Virus record (IMG/VR): IMGVR_UViG_3300031949_000016
Span: 22,692 to 86,691 of that record
Source of the DNA: a virus
Lineage: Duplodnaviria; Caudoviricetes
Reading direction: 5' to 3' (one strand)
Length of the DNA stretch: 64,000 nt
Shown: one piece after another, positions 4,500 through 50,594 of the stretch
Position numbering within the stretch: position 1 is the first letter of the stretch
How the letters are laid out: every line of letters begins with the position of its first letter
Translations under genes and position numbers: made by a program
Notes under the pieces: generated by a model
Database searches by the model: none
What the model saw: only the letters and a program-made list of their open reading frames with translations
What the model was told of the DNA's origin: nothing

Positions 4500-4770
4500 A
4501 CTCCTATCCCAAACAAAAAAGCGCCGACACCTCCCGCAGAGGCTCGGCGCTTTCAGTTCCGCACAGAACAAGTTATTCGATTAGGATCGGCCTTCCACCA
4601 TTCCGGCCGTGTTATCGGTTTACGGCTTGCAATCTCATCAAGTTCTCTCGTCGGATTAGTTTGTAGAGATTGCTCAGGCAACTAGCACCGACTTACAGTC
4701 CCAGTCATTTACATCTCGTGGAACTGGTTACGGTGGCCTAGTCCTTGCCCAACTATTAAAAATAGTTTAT
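4500..4770 (-). ncRNA. Candidate multi-stem structured RNA, unassigned
   Basis: Non-coding gap with nested stems CTAGGCCACCG/CGGTGCTAG, GCAATCTC/GAGATTGC, GCCGT/ACGGC, ending in a terminator. Confidence 0.3.
4515..4555 (-). terminator. Intrinsic terminator-like hairpin
   Basis: AAAGCGCCGA...TCGGCGCTTTTTT on - strand. Confidence 0.65.
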
Positions 4771-27089: not shown

Positions 27090-27118
27090 TTGACATGCAC
27101 ACGCAGCGCGTATATAAT
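27090..27118 (+). promoter_or_regulatory. Consensus sigma70 promoter of the RAMP cassette
   Basis: TTGACA-17-TATAAT; ATG 6 nt downstream. Confidence 0.85.
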
Positions 27119-27124
27119 GTACGC

Positions 27125-27334
27125 ATGAAGACCATACGCCTGACCGATGAACTCTACCGGCAACTCGCCGAACGTGCAAAACGAACACACCGCTCGATAA
27201 ACTCCGAGGCTGTGTTCGCGGTTGAATCCTATCTCATAAGCGTTTCGGAATCCATGCCAGAAATACCCCGCGAAGACGCGCCACCCATCAAGCGACGGCG
27301 TTCTCGAATGCCGACCAACCATCCTAATCCATAA
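27125..27334 (+). CDS. Arc-like ribbon-helix-helix regulator, leaderless
   Basis: MKTIRLTDELYRQLAERAKRTHRSINSEAV. Confidence 0.8.
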   Translation: MKTIRLTDELYRQLAERAKRTHRSINSEAVFAVESYLISVSESMPEIPREDAPPIKRRRSRMPTNHPNP

Positions 27335-27352
27335 CACGAAAGGATAAGTATC

Positions 27353-27907
27353 ATGTACGTCATCACGGGAGAAATTCAGGGGGTTGCACCATTGCTGTTC
27401 AACAAGATGCTGGAAGGCGAACTCGAACAAACAGCGTCCAGCAAAACCCTCAAGGGCCGCGTGACCGTTGAAGACCGCATCGCGGAAGCGGAAAACCGAG
27501 TGTATCGAAACGAGGCTGGCATCATTTACCTGCCGGGTTGGAACTTCAAGCAATGCCTGTTGGAAGGCTGCCGACGCTCCGGCCTCAAAGTCGGGCGCGG
27601 TTCACTGATGCCCTATCTGCAAGCCGCCGTGTTTCCCGATCGGGAATTGTATTTCTCGAACCGGAAGACGCACGATTTCATGCACGAGAATTGGGGCCGA
27701 CGGCCCCCGCGCACCGGCGGCGCATGTATGGTCAGGCGTCCGGCGCTCAAGGAAGGCTGGAAGTTGGCCTTCAACCTGAACATCGTCGACGATCGCCGTC
27801 ACCCCGAAGAGATCAAACGCTCGCTTGAAGAAGCCGGCCTGCTCGTCGGCATCGGCTCGTGGCGACCGGAGTACGGTCGCTTCATCGTGACAAAGTTTGC
27901 ATCTTAG
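27353..27907 (+). CDS. Solitary Cas7/RAMP-like protein (Vipr-like candidate)
   Basis: N-terminal strand plus GVAPLLFN, IYLPGWNFKQCL, Gly-rich loop GLLVGIGSWRPEYGRF; flanked by pentamer arrays. Confidence 0.7.
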   Translation: MYVITGEIQGVAPLLFNKMLEGELEQTASSKTLKGRVTVEDRIAEAENRVYRNEAGIIYLPGWNFKQCLLEGCRRSGLKVGRGSLMPYLQAAVFPDRELYFSNRKTHDFMHENWGRRPPRTGGACMVRRPALKEGWKLAFNLNIVDDRRHPEEIKRSLEEAGLLVGIGSWRPEYGRFIVTKFAS

Positions 27908-27918
27908 AACTTGAATAA

Positions 27919-27983
27919 TGCGCGGCATGGCCGGGCGTAGCCTGGCCGGGCTCGGCAAGGCTAAGCAAAGCAAGGCAAGGGCA
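27919..27983 (+). repeat. Pentamer array 1, (NGC-NN)12 plus GGG; candidate guide RNA
   Basis: 8 GGC, 3 AGC, 1 TGC at exact 5-nt period in intergenic DNA. Confidence 0.85.
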
Positions 27984-28003
27984 TCACAACAAGAAGGAGA
28001 ATC

Positions 28004-28312
28004 ATGGACCGTGACAGCAAACGCTTGGAACCCATTATCGACCCGGCGATCAACGCCATTCGATCCATCCTGACGGACGGCGAGCACACCGACAACGAGA
28101 TCACCGCCGCCCGCATCGCCAGCAGTGTTCTGGCCACCTGGTCTAAACTCAAGCAAAGCGAGCGCGCGCAAGAAGCCGTCTACTTTGCAATGGCCCGCGA
28201 ACTCGCGCAAGATCAGGAACAACTCGCCAAATACATATCGATGACCCTGCCCGATGTTCCACTGGTCAGAGTCCTCGACGCCAAGAAGTTGCCCGCTCCA
28301 AAGAAGAAGTAA
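28004..28312 (+). CDS. Hypothetical helical protein between the two arrays
   Basis: Strong AAGGAG RBS; ORF track. Confidence 0.75.
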   Translation: MDRDSKRLEPIIDPAINAIRSILTDGEHTDNEITAARIASSVLATWSKLKQSERAQEAVYFAMARELAQDQEQLAKYISMTLPDVPLVRVLDAKKLPAPKKK

Positions 28313-28316
28313 ACGC

Positions 28317-28386
28317 GGCAATGCTCGGCATGGCGTAGCAAGGCGAAGCACGGCATGGCGTAGCGAGGCGAAGCCCGGCAGGGGAC
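28317..28386 (+). repeat. Pentamer array 2, (NGC-NN)13 plus GGG; candidate guide RNA
   Basis: 8 GGC, 4 AGC, 1 TGC at exact 5-nt period in intergenic DNA. Confidence 0.85.
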
Positions 28387-28398
28387 GTAACAAGATCT

Positions 28399-28429
28399 AA
28401 CGCGCCAACGACTTCATCGCAGGCGCGTT
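28399..28429. terminator. Hairpin between convergent transcription units
   Basis: AACGCGCC...GGCGCGTT inverted repeat. Confidence 0.5.
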
Positions 28430-28486: not shown

Positions 28487-29350
28487 TCAAATTCTCCACG
28501 TCATCATGTTGTACCACCAGTCGGCCGGTTTGCTAGGCCCGTAATCAGGGTAGGACGGATACGGATACCCACCTCCGCCATACCCTCCACCGCCTCCACC
28601 CCCCGTATACGCCGGCATCGCCACCGGCTCTTCATTCGCCAGCCCCAGCCGCGCCTTATCGTACTCCCGCATCCTCACCCGCAAGTCCTCGATGTCGTAC
28701 ATATTATCGGGTGCTGGCTGCAGTCGCGCGGCCTCGTTCGCGGTCAGTTCGCTGCGCAGGATCGGCGGAGTCTGCGGCGCGAAGTGCATCCCGCGCGTCG
28801 CCGGACTGCCCGGCAGCAAATACAACGGTGGCTCGGCCATCCCCGGCACCGGCTGCCCGCTGCCCCCCGGCAAATCATAGTACGCCGTTGGCACAGCCGG
28901 ATACAGTCCTCCGCCTTCTCCGAACGCCCGCATCTTCCGTGCGTAAGCCGCCGTCGAAAATGGATTGTTTGGATCGAAAAATGGCGCAGCCGATGCCATC
29001 TCTTGCGCACTGACAGCACCCACCGGCCCAGAATACAGCGGCCGGCCTCGGATGTCCAGCGCATACTGCGGATTCATGACGCTGGCTTGACTTCCGAACC
29101 TGCTTTGGAATGCCGGCGGGATATTGCCCCGCCCCCCGCCTCGCCCGCGAAACCGCATCGCCTCAATATCGCCCGGACTCGGCACCCGATTGCGCGCCGT
29201 CAGCGTTGAAGATACCGGTTTTTGTGGGGTCGGCCTCCACCTGCTGCGCAAATCCTCGATGTCCATTAGACCACCCTTCGTCGGCGGAGTCGGCATCCGT
29301 TCCTTATTCATGAATCGCCGATATAAATCCTTCCAATCGTCGTAGGCCAT
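28487..29350 (-). CDS. Pro/Gly-rich hypothetical protein, possibly virion-associated
   Basis: ORF track; start moved to MAYDD at 29350. Confidence 0.65.
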   Translation of the reverse strand: MAYDDWKDLYRRFMNKERMPTPPTKGGLMDIEDLRSRWRPTPQKPVSSTLTARNRVPSPGDIEAMRFRGRGGGRGNIPPAFQSRFGSQASVMNPQYALDIRGRPLYSGPVGAVSAQEMASAAPFFDPNNPFSTAAYARKMRAFGEGGGLYPAVPTAYYDLPGGSGQPVPGMAEPPLYLLPGSPATRGMHFAPQTPPILRSELTANEAARLQPAPDNMYDIEDLRVRMREYDKARLGLANEEPVAMPAYTGGGGGGGYGGGGYPYPSYPDYGPSKPADWWYNMMTWRI

Positions 29351-29483
29351 GAGATAATCCCCCTCTCTTGGTGGGATGAGATAATCCCCCTCTCTTGGTG
29401 GGATGAGATAATCCCCCTCTCTTGGTGGGATGAGATAATCCCCCTCTCTTGGTGGGATGAGATAATCCCCCTCTCTTGGTGGG
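29349..29483 (+). repeat. Perfect 27-bp tandem repeat, 5 copies
   Basis: ATGAGATAATCCCCCTCTCTTGGTGGG x5. Confidence 0.95.
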
Positions 29484-29510
29484 ATGACTTCACCCCCCAT
29501 TCACCATTGA

Positions 29511-33379: not shown

Positions 33380-34813
33380 CTAATTACTTTTCCCCCTCAA
33401 CCTATCCCCCACCCACCGCGCCGTACCCTTCCGCACCGTCCAACCCCGCGCATCCCACCGTGCAAGAATGTCCCGCAACTGCGGCTCCGTCATCGCCTGC
33501 GGAACGGCCTTCACGAACCGCGCCATCAACTTCGTGTAGTTCAGCGACCCGCCCATCTCCTCCACGGCGAACCGCACTACCTCCACCTCAATCGGCGTCA
33601 GGTCCCCGCCGCCCATCGCCGGCCCCGCCGTCCCATCCATCAATGTCCGCAGCCGATCGGCCCCGATGCGGTAAGTCTGGATCTCAACCGGCTCACCATC
33701 CAGCCTAAGATAGCCCCGCCCCGGCTGTGCAATCGCCGTCGCCTTGCGCGCATACGCCCGGCTCATCAGCACCGACTGTCCGACATATTCATCTCCCACG
33801 CGCAGGCACAAACGCGTCCCGAACGTCGAAGACAACGCTCGCTCGATCTCGCGCGCCTGCCAGTTGTGAGCGATGACGACGCTCATCAATCCATACTTCC
33901 GTCCCATCCGATTCAGATCAGCCAGCGCCGAATCCAGTTCCCCGCCGAAACTCAGGTACTCATCGATCGCCAACAGGATTCCATTCAGCGGCTCGCCGGC
34001 CTTCCACTTGTTGTACTGCTCTATGTCTTCAGGAGGAATACCGCCGTTCTTATCGACCGCAGCCTCTCGGAACAGCATCGCCCGCCGGTCGAACTCCGCA
34101 TGGATCGTGCGGATGATGTCAGCGAAGTCATCCACCGACTGCCCGATGCGCTTCACCTGTGGCACCTGCCCCCACAACTCAGGGATGAACGTGTTGCCGG
34201 CCATCGGCTGCACCAGGTACAAATCGTACCCCTGCCCCACTGCCTGGTAAGCCAGCAACTGCCCGATGTTCGATTTGCCGTAGCCCTGCAATCCGCCAAC
34301 CATCAGCGTCTTCAATTCCTTGCGCGTCAGCGCCAGCGACCCGGCCTTCGTCTCCCCCAGCAGGAACTTCCCCTCTGGCAATGTCGCCGGCAACTCGACC
34401 TCGTTCGGCAGTTCCAATTTCTTCGACGGCCTCATCACCACCAGATACGCGACCAGCGTCTCGGCAATGTCCCCCGATTCTCCGCCGATCGCGCTCATCA
34501 GCACGTCCACCACCTCAGTCGGCACGACCTTGACCGGCCGCTTCAACTGGACCATCAGCCGCTCCGCCACGATCGGCGCCCGCATCTGCTCCAGCGACAC
34601 ATGATGCAGACGTTGTGGATCGACGACAAGCACAACGAACTGATCAGCGACGTTGATCGCCGCGCCGATCCTGGGCGTGAACGGGCTGCCGTCCTGGTTG
34701 ACGTGGCTCAACCCGCGCACCTGCATGAACGCATAGCACGCATTGCGCGCCATGTCCATCAGGTTGCTCTCAGTTACCGCCGCCAGTCCGCTCACTCCCC
34801 GCCCGCTTTCCAT
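33380..34813 (-). CDS. FtsK/SpoIIIE-like ATPase (TraB-like) with C-terminal wHTH-like tail
   Basis: GGLQGYGKSN Walker A, LAIDEY Walker B, GRKYG, PGRG. Confidence 0.8.
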   Translation of the reverse strand: MESGRGVSGLAAVTESNLMDMARNACYAFMQVRGLSHVNQDGSPFTPRIGAAINVADQFVVLVVDPQRLHHVSLEQMRAPIVAERLMVQLKRPVKVVPTEVVDVLMSAIGGESGDIAETLVAYLVVMRPSKKLELPNEVELPATLPEGKFLLGETKAGSLALTRKELKTLMVGGLQGYGKSNIGQLLAYQAVGQGYDLYLVQPMAGNTFIPELWGQVPQVKRIGQSVDDFADIIRTIHAEFDRRAMLFREAAVDKNGGIPPEDIEQYNKWKAGEPLNGILLAIDEYLSFGGELDSALADLNRMGRKYGLMSVVIAHNWQAREIERALSSTFGTRLCLRVGDEYVGQSVLMSRAYARKATAIAQPGRGYLRLDGEPVEIQTYRIGADRLRTLMDGTAGPAMGGGDLTPIEVEVVRFAVEEMGGSLNYTKLMARFVKAVPQAMTEPQLRDILARWDARGWTVRKGTARWVGDRLRGKSN

Positions 34814-41884: not shown

Positions 41885-43312
41885 TCAGAAATCCTTTCCC
41901 CCCAGCGCCTCCCGCGGCAGCACCATCTTAGCGATCGGGTCTGTCCCCAACGCCTGCAGCGGCGTCAACACCCGCGGCCGCGGCACAATCTGAGTGATGG
42001 CGTAGCGTGCAGCGTCGTAGGCATGATCGTCTGCGTGGCTGTCCACATCCTCCACATTCACCCCATCGTATGGCAGGTTCGCCAACTGCTTCGCCAGGTT
42101 CACGCAGTTCTCAAACACCAGCAGCCCCGGCTGTCCGTCCGGTAAGTTCGCCAGCAGCGTATCGACCTTGCGCTTGCCCATGATCCGATTGTTATCGCCC
42201 TTGCTCAGCGCCACGCCCTCGGCCGCGTACTCGTCCGCCGTCGAATACACCCGATCCTCAACGCTCTTCTTCGTCCACATGCTCGGGTCAGCGAACGTCG
42301 CCGCGATCTTCTCGCCCGGCAGCGTGTAATCCTTAATCTTCCGCGCCTGCTGCCGGTCCGTCAGCCCCGCCTCGTACAGCTCGCGGTAGAAAATGATCCG
42401 CCCCGTGTCCGGGTCCTTCGCCAGCCATACGCAGGCGAACGGATTGCGCCGGCCCCAATCGATCCCGCGCCACCTCGTCCACGACGCCGGAATCTCGAAC
42501 GCCTTGACCACGTGCATAATGTAGTTAAACATAAACGCCTGCCCCTCGAACACATCCCAGTCGCCGTCCCGCCACGCCTGCCCCAGCGGGCCTTTCAGCG
42601 ATTCGAGATAGTCCCGATACTCATGCTGTGTGAAAGGATTGTCCTTATAAGTTCCAGGAAAGAACCTTGTCTCCGACTGGCGCTTCTCGCGCCACGGCAT
42701 CACATACAGATCCTTGAACGCCTTGTGTCCCACCCCGCCCGGGTTAGCGCTCTCGTACAATCGCGGGCGCCAATCCGACCGGCTCGTGCGCAGGCTGCCC
42801 CGGATCTTCTCGCGCTTCTCCCCGCTTAACTGTGTCCCCTCCTCTATAACAATCCCGTCGTACTCGATGCCCAGGTATTTGTCGATGTCGTTTTCGTCCT
42901 TGTACCCCCCGATCAAAATCCTCGACCCATTCCGAAACACCACCCGGCCGGCTGTCACCTCGCGCGCCACCCGCCCAAACACACGGCGGATGAGATCGTC
43001 AAAACTCTCACCCGCCGACTTCATTACCTTCCGTAAGAATAAGAACTTCAATCCGGCGCAGCGTTGGCAATCGTCCAGCCCCGCCTGCCCCATCAACCCA
43101 AATGATTTACCTGGCCCGCGCGCCCCGCCGACTCCGATCATCGTCGGCCCGCCAGCCTTGTCCGCCTCCCGTGCTGCTACATGAAACGGCAGCAACCAGG
43201 GCAGGGCGACGTATCCAAATTTTACAAACCGATCAACCTGATCCTTCGCCAGTCCCGCCGCCGCCGCCCGAGCCAGATACCGCTCAACCAGGATTGGATC
43301 CAGGCTTGGCAT
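41885..43312 (-). CDS. terL: Terminase large subunit
   Basis: GGARGPGKS Walker A, IVIEEG Walker B, SANPGG, nuclease GIDWG and DDHAYDAARY. Confidence 0.9.
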   Translation of the reverse strand: MPSLDPILVERYLARAAAAGLAKDQVDRFVKFGYVALPWLLPFHVAAREADKAGGPTMIGVGGARGPGKSFGLMGQAGLDDCQRCAGLKFLFLRKVMKSAGESFDDLIRRVFGRVAREVTAGRVVFRNGSRILIGGYKDENDIDKYLGIEYDGIVIEEGTQLSGEKREKIRGSLRTSRSDWRPRLYESANPGGVGHKAFKDLYVMPWREKRQSETRFFPGTYKDNPFTQHEYRDYLESLKGPLGQAWRDGDWDVFEGQAFMFNYIMHVVKAFEIPASWTRWRGIDWGRRNPFACVWLAKDPDTGRIIFYRELYEAGLTDRQQARKIKDYTLPGEKIAATFADPSMWTKKSVEDRVYSTADEYAAEGVALSKGDNNRIMGKRKVDTLLANLPDGQPGLLVFENCVNLAKQLANLPYDGVNVEDVDSHADDHAYDAARYAITQIVPRPRVLTPLQALGTDPIAKMVLPREALGGKDF

Positions 43313-43805
43313 CCCCGTAAACTTTCTCCAGCATCTCCGCAAACCCGTCGATATGAATCTCGGCGGAGATCTCCTGCTTCACCCGGTCCTTGAACTTGTC
43401 CGGCCGCGCCCCCTTCAACAAGAAGATCAACAGCACGTCGCTGTACTGCCTCTCCACCCCCACGATCCCCGTCGTGGTCCCGACCTCTTCATCGAACACC
43501 CGACCGAACACCGGCTTCTCGACGCCCTTGACCGCCCTCCGCCAGGCTTCCTTCTCCATCACGTCGGCCGCATCCTCCAGCGCATCCGTCCACTGCTGCG
43601 CGAAGTCCGCGTCGGCCTCCCGATTCCGGTACGCCGTCCACCGGCTGATGCGCGCCGCCGCGCACGCCACCTTGACATTGCCCGACTCACGCAAACGAGC
43701 GATGAACTTAACCTTCCAGTCCGTCGCTCGTGTCACCGCCGTCTGATTTGGTCTAGGTTTGGAAGTCCGCTTGATGACCTTCCCCTCTACCTTCCGTGCT
43801 GCCAT
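43284..43805 (-). CDS. terS: Terminase small subunit
   Basis: HTH-like GNVKVACAAARISRWTAY, EAWRRAVKG, YSDVLLIFLLKG; overlaps terL. Confidence 0.8.
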   Translation of the reverse strand: MAARKVEGKVIKRTSKPRPNQTAVTRATDWKVKFIARLRESGNVKVACAAARISRWTAYRNREADADFAQQWTDALEDAADVMEKEAWRRAVKGVEKPVFGRVFDEEVGTTTGIVGVERQYSDVLLIFLLKGARPDKFKDRVKQEISAEIHIDGFAEMLEKVYGDAKPGSNPG

Positions 43806-49028: not shown

Positions 49029-50594
49029 TCAATCAAACTCCACCTTCACTTCTTGCGAAGCACCCCCCGCCCACGTCACCCACCCGAACCGCCGCCCGTC
49101 CTCGTGCCGCCCCATCCTCACCCGCACATCCAGCAGATCGACAATCTCCCGCCTCCGCTCGAAACTCGCCCGATCGATCTTCCCCCGCATCTGCCGCACC
49201 CGCTCCGCCAACTCCACCCTGGCCGTCGCCTGCGCCTGACGATCCTCCCCCTGCGCCAGCACGTCCGCGCGCGCGCTGCGCAGTTCCAGAATCTTCCGCC
49301 GCGATTCCCGGATCTTCAACTCGACCGATGCCGCCAACTCCTCGTCGTGCTCCGTGTCGCCACCGAACCGATCTAGCCACGCAGAGATCTGCTTCTCGTA
49401 CTCCGTGATCTTCGCGTCGATCTCCGCGATGCGCGCCGCACTCTCATTCGTCTCACCCGCCAGGGCCTGCGCCTGGTCCAGTTCCTTTACCCCCTGCGCC
49501 AGCCTGTCACTCGTAATCAACTCCCGCACCAGCGCCCACACCTTGACGTCGACCTTGCTCGTCACGATCGTCCCGAAGTGGCACACCTCGTACAGTCCCG
49601 CCGGCTGCCCCTTTGAATTGCAAAAATAGATCGACGTAAACTGCTTCGCCCGATCGTTCTTCACCCGCGTCACCGCACTCATCCCCAGCCCGCACGCACA
49701 CGTCAGCCGCCGCGCCATCAAATACTCCCGCTGCCGGTTGCGCGCCGCCGCGATAAAGTTGCTCTTCGCCTGGCGCTGCGCCGCCGCCCACTCCCCCGGC
49801 TCCACGATCGCCAGCGCCGGCACACTGATCTCGATCCCCCGATACTCGATGATTCCCACATAAGCCCGCGACTTCAGGATAATACTCACCGTGCTCGGCC
49901 ACCACTTATTACCCCCGTATGGCGCCGTCACCCCCCGCTCCATCAACCGCTGCGCGATCGGAATCAACCCCATCGCCTTCTTCCCATCCCAGCCCGTGTA
50001 CCGATCGAAGATCCACTTCACGATCCTCATCTGCTCCTTCACCACCACCAGCACCGCATCACCTCGCTCGCCGCGCTTCTCCGACCCATAAGGTGGATTC
50101 CCCACCGCCACCCACTTCCCGCTCTTTGCCTTGCCCAACTTCCCCATCTTACTCCGTCTCACCAGCGTCTCGATCTCGTGCTGGCTGAACGCCCCCTCGA
50201 TGTTGCTCAACAGATTCCCCTCCGGCGTATCCTCGATCTCACCGCGCGTCGTCGTATACAACGTCAGCCCCAGCGCCTTAATCTCCCGCCGCAGCGCGAT
50301 CTGCAACTCCAGATCGCGGCTCAACCGATCCATCACGAACGCCACCACCGCCTGAATCTCATTCCGTCTCGCCATCTCCCGCAGCCGGCGCACGTCCGCC
50401 CGGTCCAGCGTAAACCCCGACTTCTTCTCCGTCACATACTCCACCACCGTCAACCCGCGGTCGGCCGCAAAGCGCGCAATCGCCGCCTGCTGCTCGCTCG
50501 GCGAATACCCCTTAGCCGCCTGCGCCTTCGTGCTCACCCGAATCAACCCAAGTGCTCGCACTTGCGCCTTCACCGCTTGTCCTTCATCCTTCAT
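49029..50594 (-). CDS. Large serine integrase
   Basis: IRVST catalytic motif, DRLSR, recombinase domain, Zn ribbon CAC...C...C, coiled coil. Confidence 0.92.
   Translation of the reverse strand: MKDEGQAVKAQVRALGLIRVSTKAQAAKGYSPSEQQAAIARFAADRGLTVVEYVTEKKSGFTLDRADVRRLREMARRNEIQAVVAFVMDRLSRDLELQIALRREIKALGLTLYTTTRGEIEDTPEGNLLSNIEGAFSQHEIETLVRRSKMGKLGKAKSGKWVAVGNPPYGSEKRGERGDAVLVVVKEQMRIVKWIFDRYTGWDGKKAMGLIPIAQRLMERGVTAPYGGNKWWPSTVSIILKSRAYVGIIEYRGIEISVPALAIVEPGEWAAAQRQAKSNFIAAARNRQREYLMARRLTCACGLGMSAVTRVKNDRAKQFTSIYFCNSKGQPAGLYEVCHFGTIVTSKVDVKVWALVRELITSDRLAQGVKELDQAQALAGETNESAARIAEIDAKITEYEKQISAWLDRFGGDTEHDEELAASVELKIRESRRKILELRSARADVLAQGEDRQAQATARVELAERVRQMRGKIDRASFERRREIVDLLDVRVRMGRHEDGRRFGWVTWAGGASQEVKVEFD

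What the first reader, a model, noticed from the sequence alone, without database searches (positions are those of the whole stretch)
27919..27983. Array 1 decoded: GC-AT-CG-GT-CT-CG-TC-AA-TA-AA-AA-AA
Seen: exact 5-nt phase for 12 units starting 11 nt after the RAMP stop, ending GGC-AA-GGG. The NN pairs are diverse at the 5' end and A-rich at the 3' end. Inference: with one skipped base per pair the target is GCnATnCGnGTnCTnCGnTCnAAnTAnAAnAAnAA or its complement; the A-rich end may be a non-informative tail. I found no convincing match in this window by eye.
Basis: partly seen in the sequence, partly recalled or inferred. Interest (0 to 1): 0.8.

Follow-up and report, generated by a model that had tools for sequence, protein, structure and literature searches.

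The report
Phage VIPR guide-RNA array
The 5-base repeat tract is a guide-RNA gene of a VIPR system, a CRISPR-like phage system first described in 2026: it is a real new example with a slightly unusual repeat, but what it targets could not be found.

Summary
Window 27919-27981 (+) carries 12 in-phase 5-nt units, (T/G/A)GC-NN, closed by GGG. It starts 11 nt after the stop of a 184-aa gene. The NN read GC AT CG GT CT CG TC AA TA AA AA AA. A second array of 13 units lies at 28317-28384.

The 184-aa protein is a Cas7-like RAMP. It matches the solved 'SUSP1 Vipr protein' (profile E 1.3e-16). Seven of the eight viral relatives at 40% identity or more carry the same kind of array on the vipr strand.

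This is therefore a VIPR system (bioRxiv 10.64898/2026.04.26.720920 and .720927).

Differences from the studied type II system:
- the scaffold is RGC rather than GGY;
- there is no structured tail;
- an Arc-like gene sits upstream;
- an unknown 102-aa helical gene lies between the arrays.

No target was found. Matches in the phage's own genome, in relatives and in the viral, metagenome and genome collections stayed at shuffled-control or chance level, so the skip rule is not independently confirmed for this clade.

This scan has already noted VIPR-like loci on other DNA: 369 notes in at least 284 genomes. Verdict: a new member of a known kind, of modest interest.

The parts
27090..27118 (+). 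Consensus sigma-70 promoter (TTGACA-17-TATAAT) at the head of the cassette. The ATG of the next gene lies 6 nt after the -10 box, so the mRNA is probably leaderless.
   Evidence: 12 of 12 hexamer positions match; sequence.
27125..27334 (+). 69-aa ribbon-helix-helix (Arc/CopG-like) gene, a likely transcriptional regulator of the cassette.
   Evidence: Pfam Arc PF03869, E 3.2e-5, above its cut-off, plus other RHH families.
27353..27907 (+). vipr: a 184-aa stand-alone Cas7-like RAMP (RRM core, thumb with R129-P130, G-loop GIGSWRPEYGRF).
   Evidence: Profile match to PDB 36pp 'SUSP1 Vipr protein', E 1.3e-16. About 30% identity over 97% of the length to Felixounavirus Vipr genes. AF2 pLDDT 93.5. 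Foldseek best matches are Cas7/Csm3/gRAMP, E 2e-7. phrog_4652.
27919..27981 (+). vrRNA array 1 (the finding): 12 units of RGC-NN closed by GGG. NN = GC AT CG GT CT CG TC AA TA AA AA AA.
27994..27999 (+). AAGGAG ribosome-binding site of the 102-aa gene, 12 nt after the end of array 1. This leaves no room for a structured vrRNA tail or a separate promoter.
   Evidence: Sequence.
28004..28312 (+). 102-aa all-helical gene with a basic C-terminus, a candidate vipr-accessory (vap-like) gene of unknown function.
   Evidence: Only 10 homologues were found. Three sit on contigs of the same length as contigs that carry close Vipr relatives, which suggests shared contigs. It is adjacent to vipr in L021. 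It has no Pfam family, no similarity to wV8 vap1 and no fold match.
28317..28384 (+). vrRNA array 2: 13 units of RGC-NN closed by GGG. NN = AA TC AT GT AA GA AC AT GT GA GA CC AG. Units 3-7 are duplicated as units 8-12, differing only at two NN bases.
   Evidence: (25-nt period, 2.2 copies, 93%).
28399..28429 (+). 8-bp G+C-rich hairpin (AACGCGCC...GGCGCGTT) after array 2. It lies between convergent genes and probably marks the 3' end of the cassette transcript.
   Evidence: Sequence. The terminator scan did not call it because there is no T run.

Best explanation
Window 27090-28429 is a self-contained VIPR (Viral Interference Programmable Repeat) cassette of a temperate tailed phage. It sits against the direction of the flanking genes. 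Its order is promoter, Arc-like regulator, vipr, vrRNA array 1, a 102-aa accessory gene, vrRNA array 2, hairpin.

Inferred by homology to the SUSP1 and P. fulva systems:
- The array is transcribed with the operon.
- One Vipr protomer binds each 5-nt unit and forms a helical filament of about 12 subunits.
- The filament buries the conserved RGC triplets and presents the NN pairs.
- The NN pairs bind double-stranded DNA that reads NNxNNx..., with one target base skipped per unit.
- The bound complex blocks transcription of a competing mobile element.

The decoded target of array 1 would be GCnATnCGnGTnCTnCGnTCnAAnTA, followed by AAn repeats that may be only partly informative, on either strand.

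Shown here:
- the array and its phase;
- the homology and fold of the Vipr protein;
- conservation of arrays beside vipr across the clade, with near-random NN and a fixed G-Y scaffold.

Not shown here: transcription, processing, filament formation, the skip rule in this clade, and the target.
For: Protein:
- The profile of 42 homologues hits PDB 36pp 'SUSP1 Vipr protein' at E 1.3e-16; the single sequence hits at 2.3e-7.
- tblastn gives about 30% identity over 97% of the length to Felixounavirus genes at the vipr position.
- The AF2 model (pLDDT 93.5) matches Cas7/Csm3/gRAMP.
- The residues that hold G2 and Y3 in SUSP1 (R138, W178, R179) align to R129, W170 and R171.

Array:
- 12 and 13 units fall inside the published range of 9-16.
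- The arrays are unique in the genome and absent from shuffles.
- Seven of the eight viral relatives at 40% identity or more carry such arrays within about 500 nt of vipr on the vipr strand.
- Over 212 units in 18 arrays, position 2 is G in 98% and position 3 is Y in 100%. Positions 4 and 5 have entropy 1.92 and 1.94 bits, and all 16 dinucleotides are used.
- The internal duplication in array 2 differs only at NN positions.

Context:
- This is a virus record with terminase and a large serine recombinase, and with no CRISPR array or cas genes.
- There is no self-target, as reported for VIPR.
Against: - No natural target was found at any gap size. Every hit is at the level of shuffled controls or of chance.
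- The scaffold is RGC (A 28%, G 64% and T 8% at position 1 here; A 52% across the clade), not GGY. The two SUSP1 residues that read G1 (H17, D177) are F16 and S169 here. The studied recognition mode is therefore not fully conserved.
- Array 1 has no room for a promoter or for the pseudoknot tail that caps type II vrRNAs.
Confidence: 0.85

Rival explanations
1. The array is a binding platform for Vipr that acts in cis on its own mRNA, not a guide. A filament assembled on 27919-27981 would sit 12 nt from the ribosome-binding site of the 102-aa gene and set its translation or the stability of the operon transcript. The NN would carry no target information.
For: Array 1 fills the 96-nt gap between vipr and the next gene and ends 12 nt before AAGGAG. 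It has no promoter or tail of its own. No target was found.
Against: In relatives the arrays lie in other places: upstream of vipr, or after the accessory gene, as in L021. A fixed cis role is therefore not conserved. NN entropy is near maximal across the clade, as expected for guides. In type II systems the arrays are proven guides. A cis effect could also exist alongside guide function.
Confidence: 0.06
2. The array is a decayed or decoy vrRNA. It is still bound by Vipr, but its A-rich 3' half (AA TA AA AA AA) no longer matches any real target.
For: Five of the last five NN are A-rich, which is more than the one or two conserved purine units seen in the clade. No target was found. Decoy and solo vrRNAs are known in the SUSP1 family (abstract).
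Against: All 12 scaffolds are intact, with G at position 2 and C at position 3 in every unit. Failure to find a target is expected for an uncultured soil-type phage whose host and rivals are not in the collections.
Confidence: 0.06
3. It is not an RNA element at all. It would be either a chance G+C-rich simple repeat, or part of the 263-aa open frame on the minus strand (27602-28393).
For: A minus-strand ORF spans both arrays, and the genome is 59% G+C.
Against: No such pattern appears in 100 shuffles. A 5-nt period cannot be a coding repeat in phase. The minus-strand ORF overlaps two conserved plus-strand genes. The purine at position 1 is a feature of the plus strand only. The arrays follow vipr homologues in other phages.
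Confidence: 0.01

Closest known systems
Type II VIPR of Escherichia phage SUSP1 and relatives such as wV8 (bioRxiv 10.64898/2026.04.26.720920, .720927 and 2026.10.15.759431; PDB 36pp)
   Same: - Both have a stand-alone Vipr RAMP of similar length (184 aa here against 195 aa) with the same G-loop core WRPxxGRF and the thumb R-P.
- Arrays have about 12 pentamer units with a fixed trinucleotide and a free NN, closed by GGG.
- Arrays flank vipr and a small second gene on the same strand.
- Both are phage-borne and have no self-target.
   Different: - Protein identity is only about 30%.
- The scaffold is RGC (A or G first, C third) against GGT in wV8.
- The G1-reading residues H17 and D177 are replaced by F16 and S169.
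- There is no pseudoknot tail and no separate promoter-like leader before each vrRNA.
- The accessory gene is unrelated to vap1.
- An Arc-like gene heads the cassette.
VIPR types with 'related consensus' repeats (NNNGG, YNNNG, NNNNG) named in the methods of 10.64898/2026.04.26.720920
   Same: Written in that paper's register, the unit here is C-NN-R-G, which fits 'YNNNG'. The clade has NCBI-derived members, so the authors' PSI-BLAST survey probably reached it.
   Different: The type tables and figures (S16, S17, data S4) are not held as text. The type of this locus therefore cannot be assigned, and I cannot tell whether the 102-aa gene is one of vap1-6.
Class 1 CRISPR-Cas backbone (Cas7/Csm3 filament on crRNA)
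   Same: The fold is the same (Foldseek E 2e-7). The principle is the same: one protomer per fixed number of guide bases, with a thumb that breaks the duplex periodically.
   Different: There is no CRISPR array, no Cas5, Cas6, Cas10, Cas8 or Cas1-Cas2, and the period is 5 nt with only 2 pairing bases instead of 6 nt with 5. It is not a CRISPR-Cas system.
TRAP-type ring proteins that read spaced triplets (11 GAG/UAG repeats with 2-3 nt spacers); from my own knowledge
   Same: A 5-nt period with a conserved triplet and about 12 repeats. This was my first lead before the homology search.
   Different: The neighbouring protein is a Cas7-like RAMP, not a TRAP fold. I dropped this lead.

Membership tests
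VIPR system | A Vipr protein: a stand-alone minimal RAMP (RRM core, thumb, G-loop) homologous to characterised Vipr | tested here: met
   PDB 36pp 'SUSP1 Vipr protein', E 1.3e-16. Full-length tblastn to Felixounavirus vipr. AF2 plus Foldseek give Cas7/Csm3. The G-loop and the thumb R-P are conserved.
VIPR system | vrRNA gene: 9-16 tandem 5-nt units with a conserved GGY (or related) trinucleotide alternating with a hypervariable NN | tested here: met
   12 and 13 units. Across the clade, position 2 is G in 98%, position 3 is Y in 100%, and NN entropy is about 1.93 bits. Position 1 is a purine (88%) rather than G, so the consensus is the 'related' form, not strict GGY.
VIPR system | Arrays lie in the intergenic regions flanking vipr, on its strand, with no CRISPR array or other cas genes | tested here: met
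   Seven of the eight viral relatives at 40% identity or more show the same association.
VIPR system | A conserved 3' tail after the repeat tract (a pseudoknot in the SUSP1 clade) | tested here: inconclusive
   The arrays end in AR-GGG as in relatives. Only a short shared ACAAGA follows, and array 1 runs into a ribosome-binding site. A hairpin follows array 2 only. There is no Rfam match.
VIPR system | An accessory vap gene next to vipr | tested here: inconclusive
   A conserved 102-aa helical gene neighbours vipr here and in L021. It is unrelated to wV8 vap1 and has no recognisable DNA-binding fold.
VIPR system | The vrRNA is expressed and co-purifies with Vipr as a filament | not testable with these tools
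This needs small-RNA sequencing and a pull-down.
VIPR system | Guides match natural DNA targets under the 1-nt-skip rule better than under other gaps or shuffled guides | tested here: inconclusive
   There was no signal above controls in the phage's own genome, among relatives or in the big collections (against controls 89, 90). The search space was small or allowed exact seeds only, and the host is unknown.
CRISPR-Cas class 1 | A CRISPR repeat-spacer array plus a multi-subunit effector (Cas5, Cas7, a large subunit) and usually Cas6 and Cas1-Cas2 | tested here: not met
   There is no repeat-spacer array. The flanking proteins tested have no Cas or any other Pfam family, and the only Pfam hit in the cassette is the Arc-like gene. 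The only Cas-like gene is the lone RAMP.

The most novel reading that the evidence does not exclude
This high-G+C clade is a distinct VIPR subtype. The first scaffold base is relaxed from G to any purine because the pair of residues that reads G1 (H17 and D177 in SUSP1) has been lost. The vrRNAs are cut out of the operon mRNA without a structured tail. The 102-aa helical protein is a new kind of accessory factor. Filament assembly on array 1 also throttles translation of that gene, whose ribosome-binding site lies 12 nt away, which would couple guide loading to accessory-protein dosage.
Probability: 0.15. Interest if true: 0.5.

Novelty: new member of a known kind. Interest (0 to 1): 0.3.

Why it matters
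VIPR is a newly described RNA-guided DNA-silencing system, proposed to be older than CRISPR. Only type II systems from enterobacterial and Pseudomonas phages have been studied at the bench.

This locus is a compact, complete example from an uncultured 59% G+C temperate phage. It adds three things:
- It shows the purine-G-C form of the scaffold together with changes at the two residues that read the first G. That is a natural experiment on how the protein reads its repeat.
- It offers an unknown accessory gene to test.
- It gives a caution for target calling. In collections of this size, a 22/24 NN match turns up by chance, so the published threshold of 80% NN match needs shuffled controls.

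It does not open a new class.

Tried and rejected
1. TRAP-like ring protein reading spaced triplets. This was my first idea. I dropped it once the neighbouring gene proved to be a Cas7-like Vipr.

2. Rfam. There were no matches in the window. In 12 fetched loci (seven clade relatives, four more distant vipr loci and the wV8 locus) the only hits were two tRNAs, and there were no hammerhead ribozymes.

3. Self-targeting. The best matches were 16/24 and 17/26, equal to shuffled guides. The skip-3 'hits' are the arrays themselves.

4. All-against-all scan of 26 clade guides against 280 kb at skips 0, 1 and 2. Two guides edged above 30 shuffles, one at skip 0 and one at skip 1. This is not a signal.

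5. Whole records of five related VIPR phages with up to 3 mismatches: no hits.

6. Seeds in viral contigs.
- Array 1 units 1-9: 0 hits.
- Array 1 units 3-11: 1 hit (L033, 20/24, out of frame, 39% G+C).
- Array 2 units 1-9: 2 hits. L019 is 19/26 in a long coiled-coil ORF that looks like a tape-measure protein. L020 is 22/24 in an Rpb1-like RNA polymerase gene on a 44% G+C contig, probably a giant virus.
- Array 2 units 4-12: 0 hits.
- Shuffled-unit controls: 1 and 0 hits.
- My estimate for a 22/24 match: about 9e-12 per site, so about one is expected in roughly 1e11 sites. The collection size here is my guess.

7. Metagenome contigs. Array 2 units 1-11 gave 0 hits. Array 1 units 1-9 gave 2 hits (L034, L035), both 19/24, with no AA-AA-AA extension and no persuasive context.

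8. Genome contigs. Array 2 units 1-10 gave 1 hit, in a 40% G+C Prolixibacteraceae MAG, with the last two units unmatched. About one hit is expected by chance.

Over all six real-seed hits, the non-seed NN positions matched 12 of 40, which is 30% and at chance level.

10. Linking the G-loop Asp-to-Ser change to the relaxed first base. L031 and L032 have Ser but mostly GGT units, so the correlation is not clean.

11. Fold of the 102-aa protein: helical, with no PDB match.

12. Complex prediction of Vipr with the 102-aa protein: no verdict.

13. Host inference.
- There is no tRNA.
- TerL is at most 35% identical to any cultured phage.
- Cluster look-up gave only one name, 'Deltaproteobacteria bacterium' MAG.

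Full report
**1. The observation**

The + strand at 27919-27981 reads TGC-GC GGC-AT GGC-CG GGC-GT AGC-CT GGC-CG GGC-TC GGC-AA GGC-TA AGC-AA AGC-AA GGC-AA GGG.
- That is 12 units in exact 5-nt phase.
- It begins 11 nt after the TAG stop (27905-27907) of the 184-aa ORF at 27353-27907.

A second array of 13 units lies at 28317-28384, after the 102-aa ORF at 28004-28312.
- (GCNNR)x6 matches only in these two places, on the + strand only, with 0 matches in 100 shuffles.
- (GCNNR)x8 is unique to them in the whole 86,691-base virus record.
- GC at a 5-nt period is self-complementary, so the purine at position 1 fixes the strand. On the minus strand that position is variable.

**2. The neighbouring protein**

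The 184-aa protein has no Pfam family but belongs to phrog_4652.
- A profile of 42 metagenomic homologues hits PDB 36pp, 'SUSP1 Vipr protein', at E 1.3e-16 over residues 5-177. The single sequence hits at 2.3e-7.
- tblastn finds about 30% identity over 97% of its length in 122 phage records, mostly Felixounavirus. In phage wV8 that gene is flanked by GGT-NN arrays.
- The AlphaFold2 model (pLDDT 93.5) matches Cas7-family proteins (type VII Cas7, Csm3, gRAMP) at E about 2e-7.

**3. What is known**

Three 2026 preprints describe VIPR systems.
- The components are a stand-alone RAMP (Vipr) and vrRNAs of 9-16 YNNGG units.
- One protomer binds per unit, GGY is buried and NN is presented.
- The target is dsDNA read as xNN, with one base skipped, on either strand and without a PAM. 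The skipped base usually falls on the codon wobble position.
- Natural targets are rival satellites, prophages and other VIPR loci, and there are no self-targets.
- Other types use a 'related consensus', including YNNNG.

**4. Conservation**

Twelve related viral loci were fetched.
- Seven of the eight at 40% identity or more carry 1-4 arrays within about 500 nt of vipr on its strand, either upstream or downstream. The eighth, L028, showed none.
- Three of the four relatives at 24-30% identity, all low in G+C, carry GGT-type arrays.
- In the high-G+C clade (18 arrays, 212 units), position 1 is A 52% and G 36%, position 2 is G 98%, and position 3 is C 91% and T 9%.
- Positions 4 and 5 have 1.92 and 1.94 bits of entropy, and all 16 dinucleotides occur.
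- The last NN is AA, GA or AG in 17 of 18 arrays. The arrays of this phage and of L021, L023 and L027 close with GGG or AGGG.
- In array 2, units 3-7 are repeated as units 8-12 with two changes, both at NN positions.

**5. Anatomy of the cassette**

The parts, in order, are:
- a perfect sigma-70 promoter at 27090-27118;
- an apparently leaderless 69-aa Arc/RHH gene at 27125-27334;
- vipr;
- array 1;
- AAGGAG at 27994-27999 and the 102-aa gene;
- array 2;
- a hairpin at 28399-28429.

The whole unit is on the + strand, between minus-strand genes. This is a moron-like arrangement.

The phage has a terminase, a helicase and a large serine recombinase, so it is probably temperate.

The 102-aa protein has only 10 homologues. 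Three sit on contigs of the same length as contigs that carry close Vipr relatives, which suggests shared contigs. In L021 it directly follows vipr, with both arrays after it. It is helical, with no fold match and no similarity to wV8 vap1.

**6. Differences from the studied type**

- The scaffold is RGC. The SUSP1 residues that read G1 (H17, D177) align to F16 and S169 here, which are F in 35 and S in 33 of 42 clade members.
- The residues that hold G2 and Y3 (R138, W178, R179) are kept as R129, W170 and R171.
- This suggests a relaxed first-base pocket, but L031 and L032 have Ser with mostly GGT units. It therefore remains a hypothesis.
- Array 1 has no space for its own promoter or a pseudoknot tail. 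Processing from the operon transcript is inferred, not shown.

**7. Target search**

- Own genome: the best match was 16/24 for array 1 and 17/26 for array 2 at skip 1. This equals or falls below 200 shuffled guides, and the same holds at skips 0 and 2.
- 26 clade guides against 280 kb of clade DNA at skips 0-2: no signal.
- Five whole related records with up to 3 mismatches: nothing.
- Exact 9-11-unit seeds at skip 1 gave 3 hits in four viral scans, against 1 hit in two shuffled-unit control scans.
- The same kind of seed gave 2 hits in metagenomes (0 for the 22-base seed) and 1 hit in genomes.
- Outside the seeds, 12 of 40 NN positions matched, which is the chance level.
- The best hit is L020, at 22/24. 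It lies in an Rpb1-like RNA polymerase gene on a 44% G+C contig. By my estimate about one such match is expected by chance in a collection of that order.

No natural target can therefore be named, and the skip rule is not independently verified for this clade. The power of these tests is low. The host is unknown. The DNA of the closest relatives could not be fetched.

**8. Verdict**

The finding is real and correctly read. It is a vrRNA array of a VIPR system and a new member of a class published in 2026, with a purine-G-C scaffold variant and an uncharacterised accessory gene. This scan has already noted VIPR-like loci many times on other DNA. Interest is modest unless the variant features or a target are shown at the bench.

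Noticed in passing
window 5974-26976 (-): A single 7000-aa ORF. Its only Pfam hits are a ddrB-like ParB domain (E 6.5e-28, about aa 5800-5940) and a GGDEF-like stretch (E 4.2e-7, about aa 2516-2589). It looks like a giant phage 'polyvalent protein'.
   Followed up: partly
window 29349-29487: A perfect 27-bp tandem repeat with 5.1 copies, inside the minus-strand ORF 28487-29500. That ORF has no family match.
   Followed up: no
window 49029-50594 (-), 41885-43342 (-), 33380-34813 (-): A large serine recombinase (phrog_95, E 8e-72), a terminase large subunit and an FtsK/SpoIIIE-like ATPase. The phage is probably temperate. It has no tRNA genes, and TerL is at most 35% identical to any cultured phage.
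   Followed up: partly
L012 about 4560-4730 (same record as L022): In this relative, the gene directly after vipr encodes a protein of about 55 aa that is extremely rich in Asp and Glu. It may be a DNA mimic. It differs from the 102-aa helical gene seen here.
   Followed up: no
L024 9734-9977; L025 5367-5654: In these relatives, three or four arrays stand head to tail, separated by short conserved linkers (TGAAACAGCCG and AGATTTCC). These may be processing or boundary signals.
   Followed up: no
window 27919-27935 and 28322-28338: The two arrays share their 5' start (AATGC-N-CGGCATGGC ... GT-AGC). This suggests that one arose by duplication of the other. The start is not conserved in L021.
   Followed up: partly
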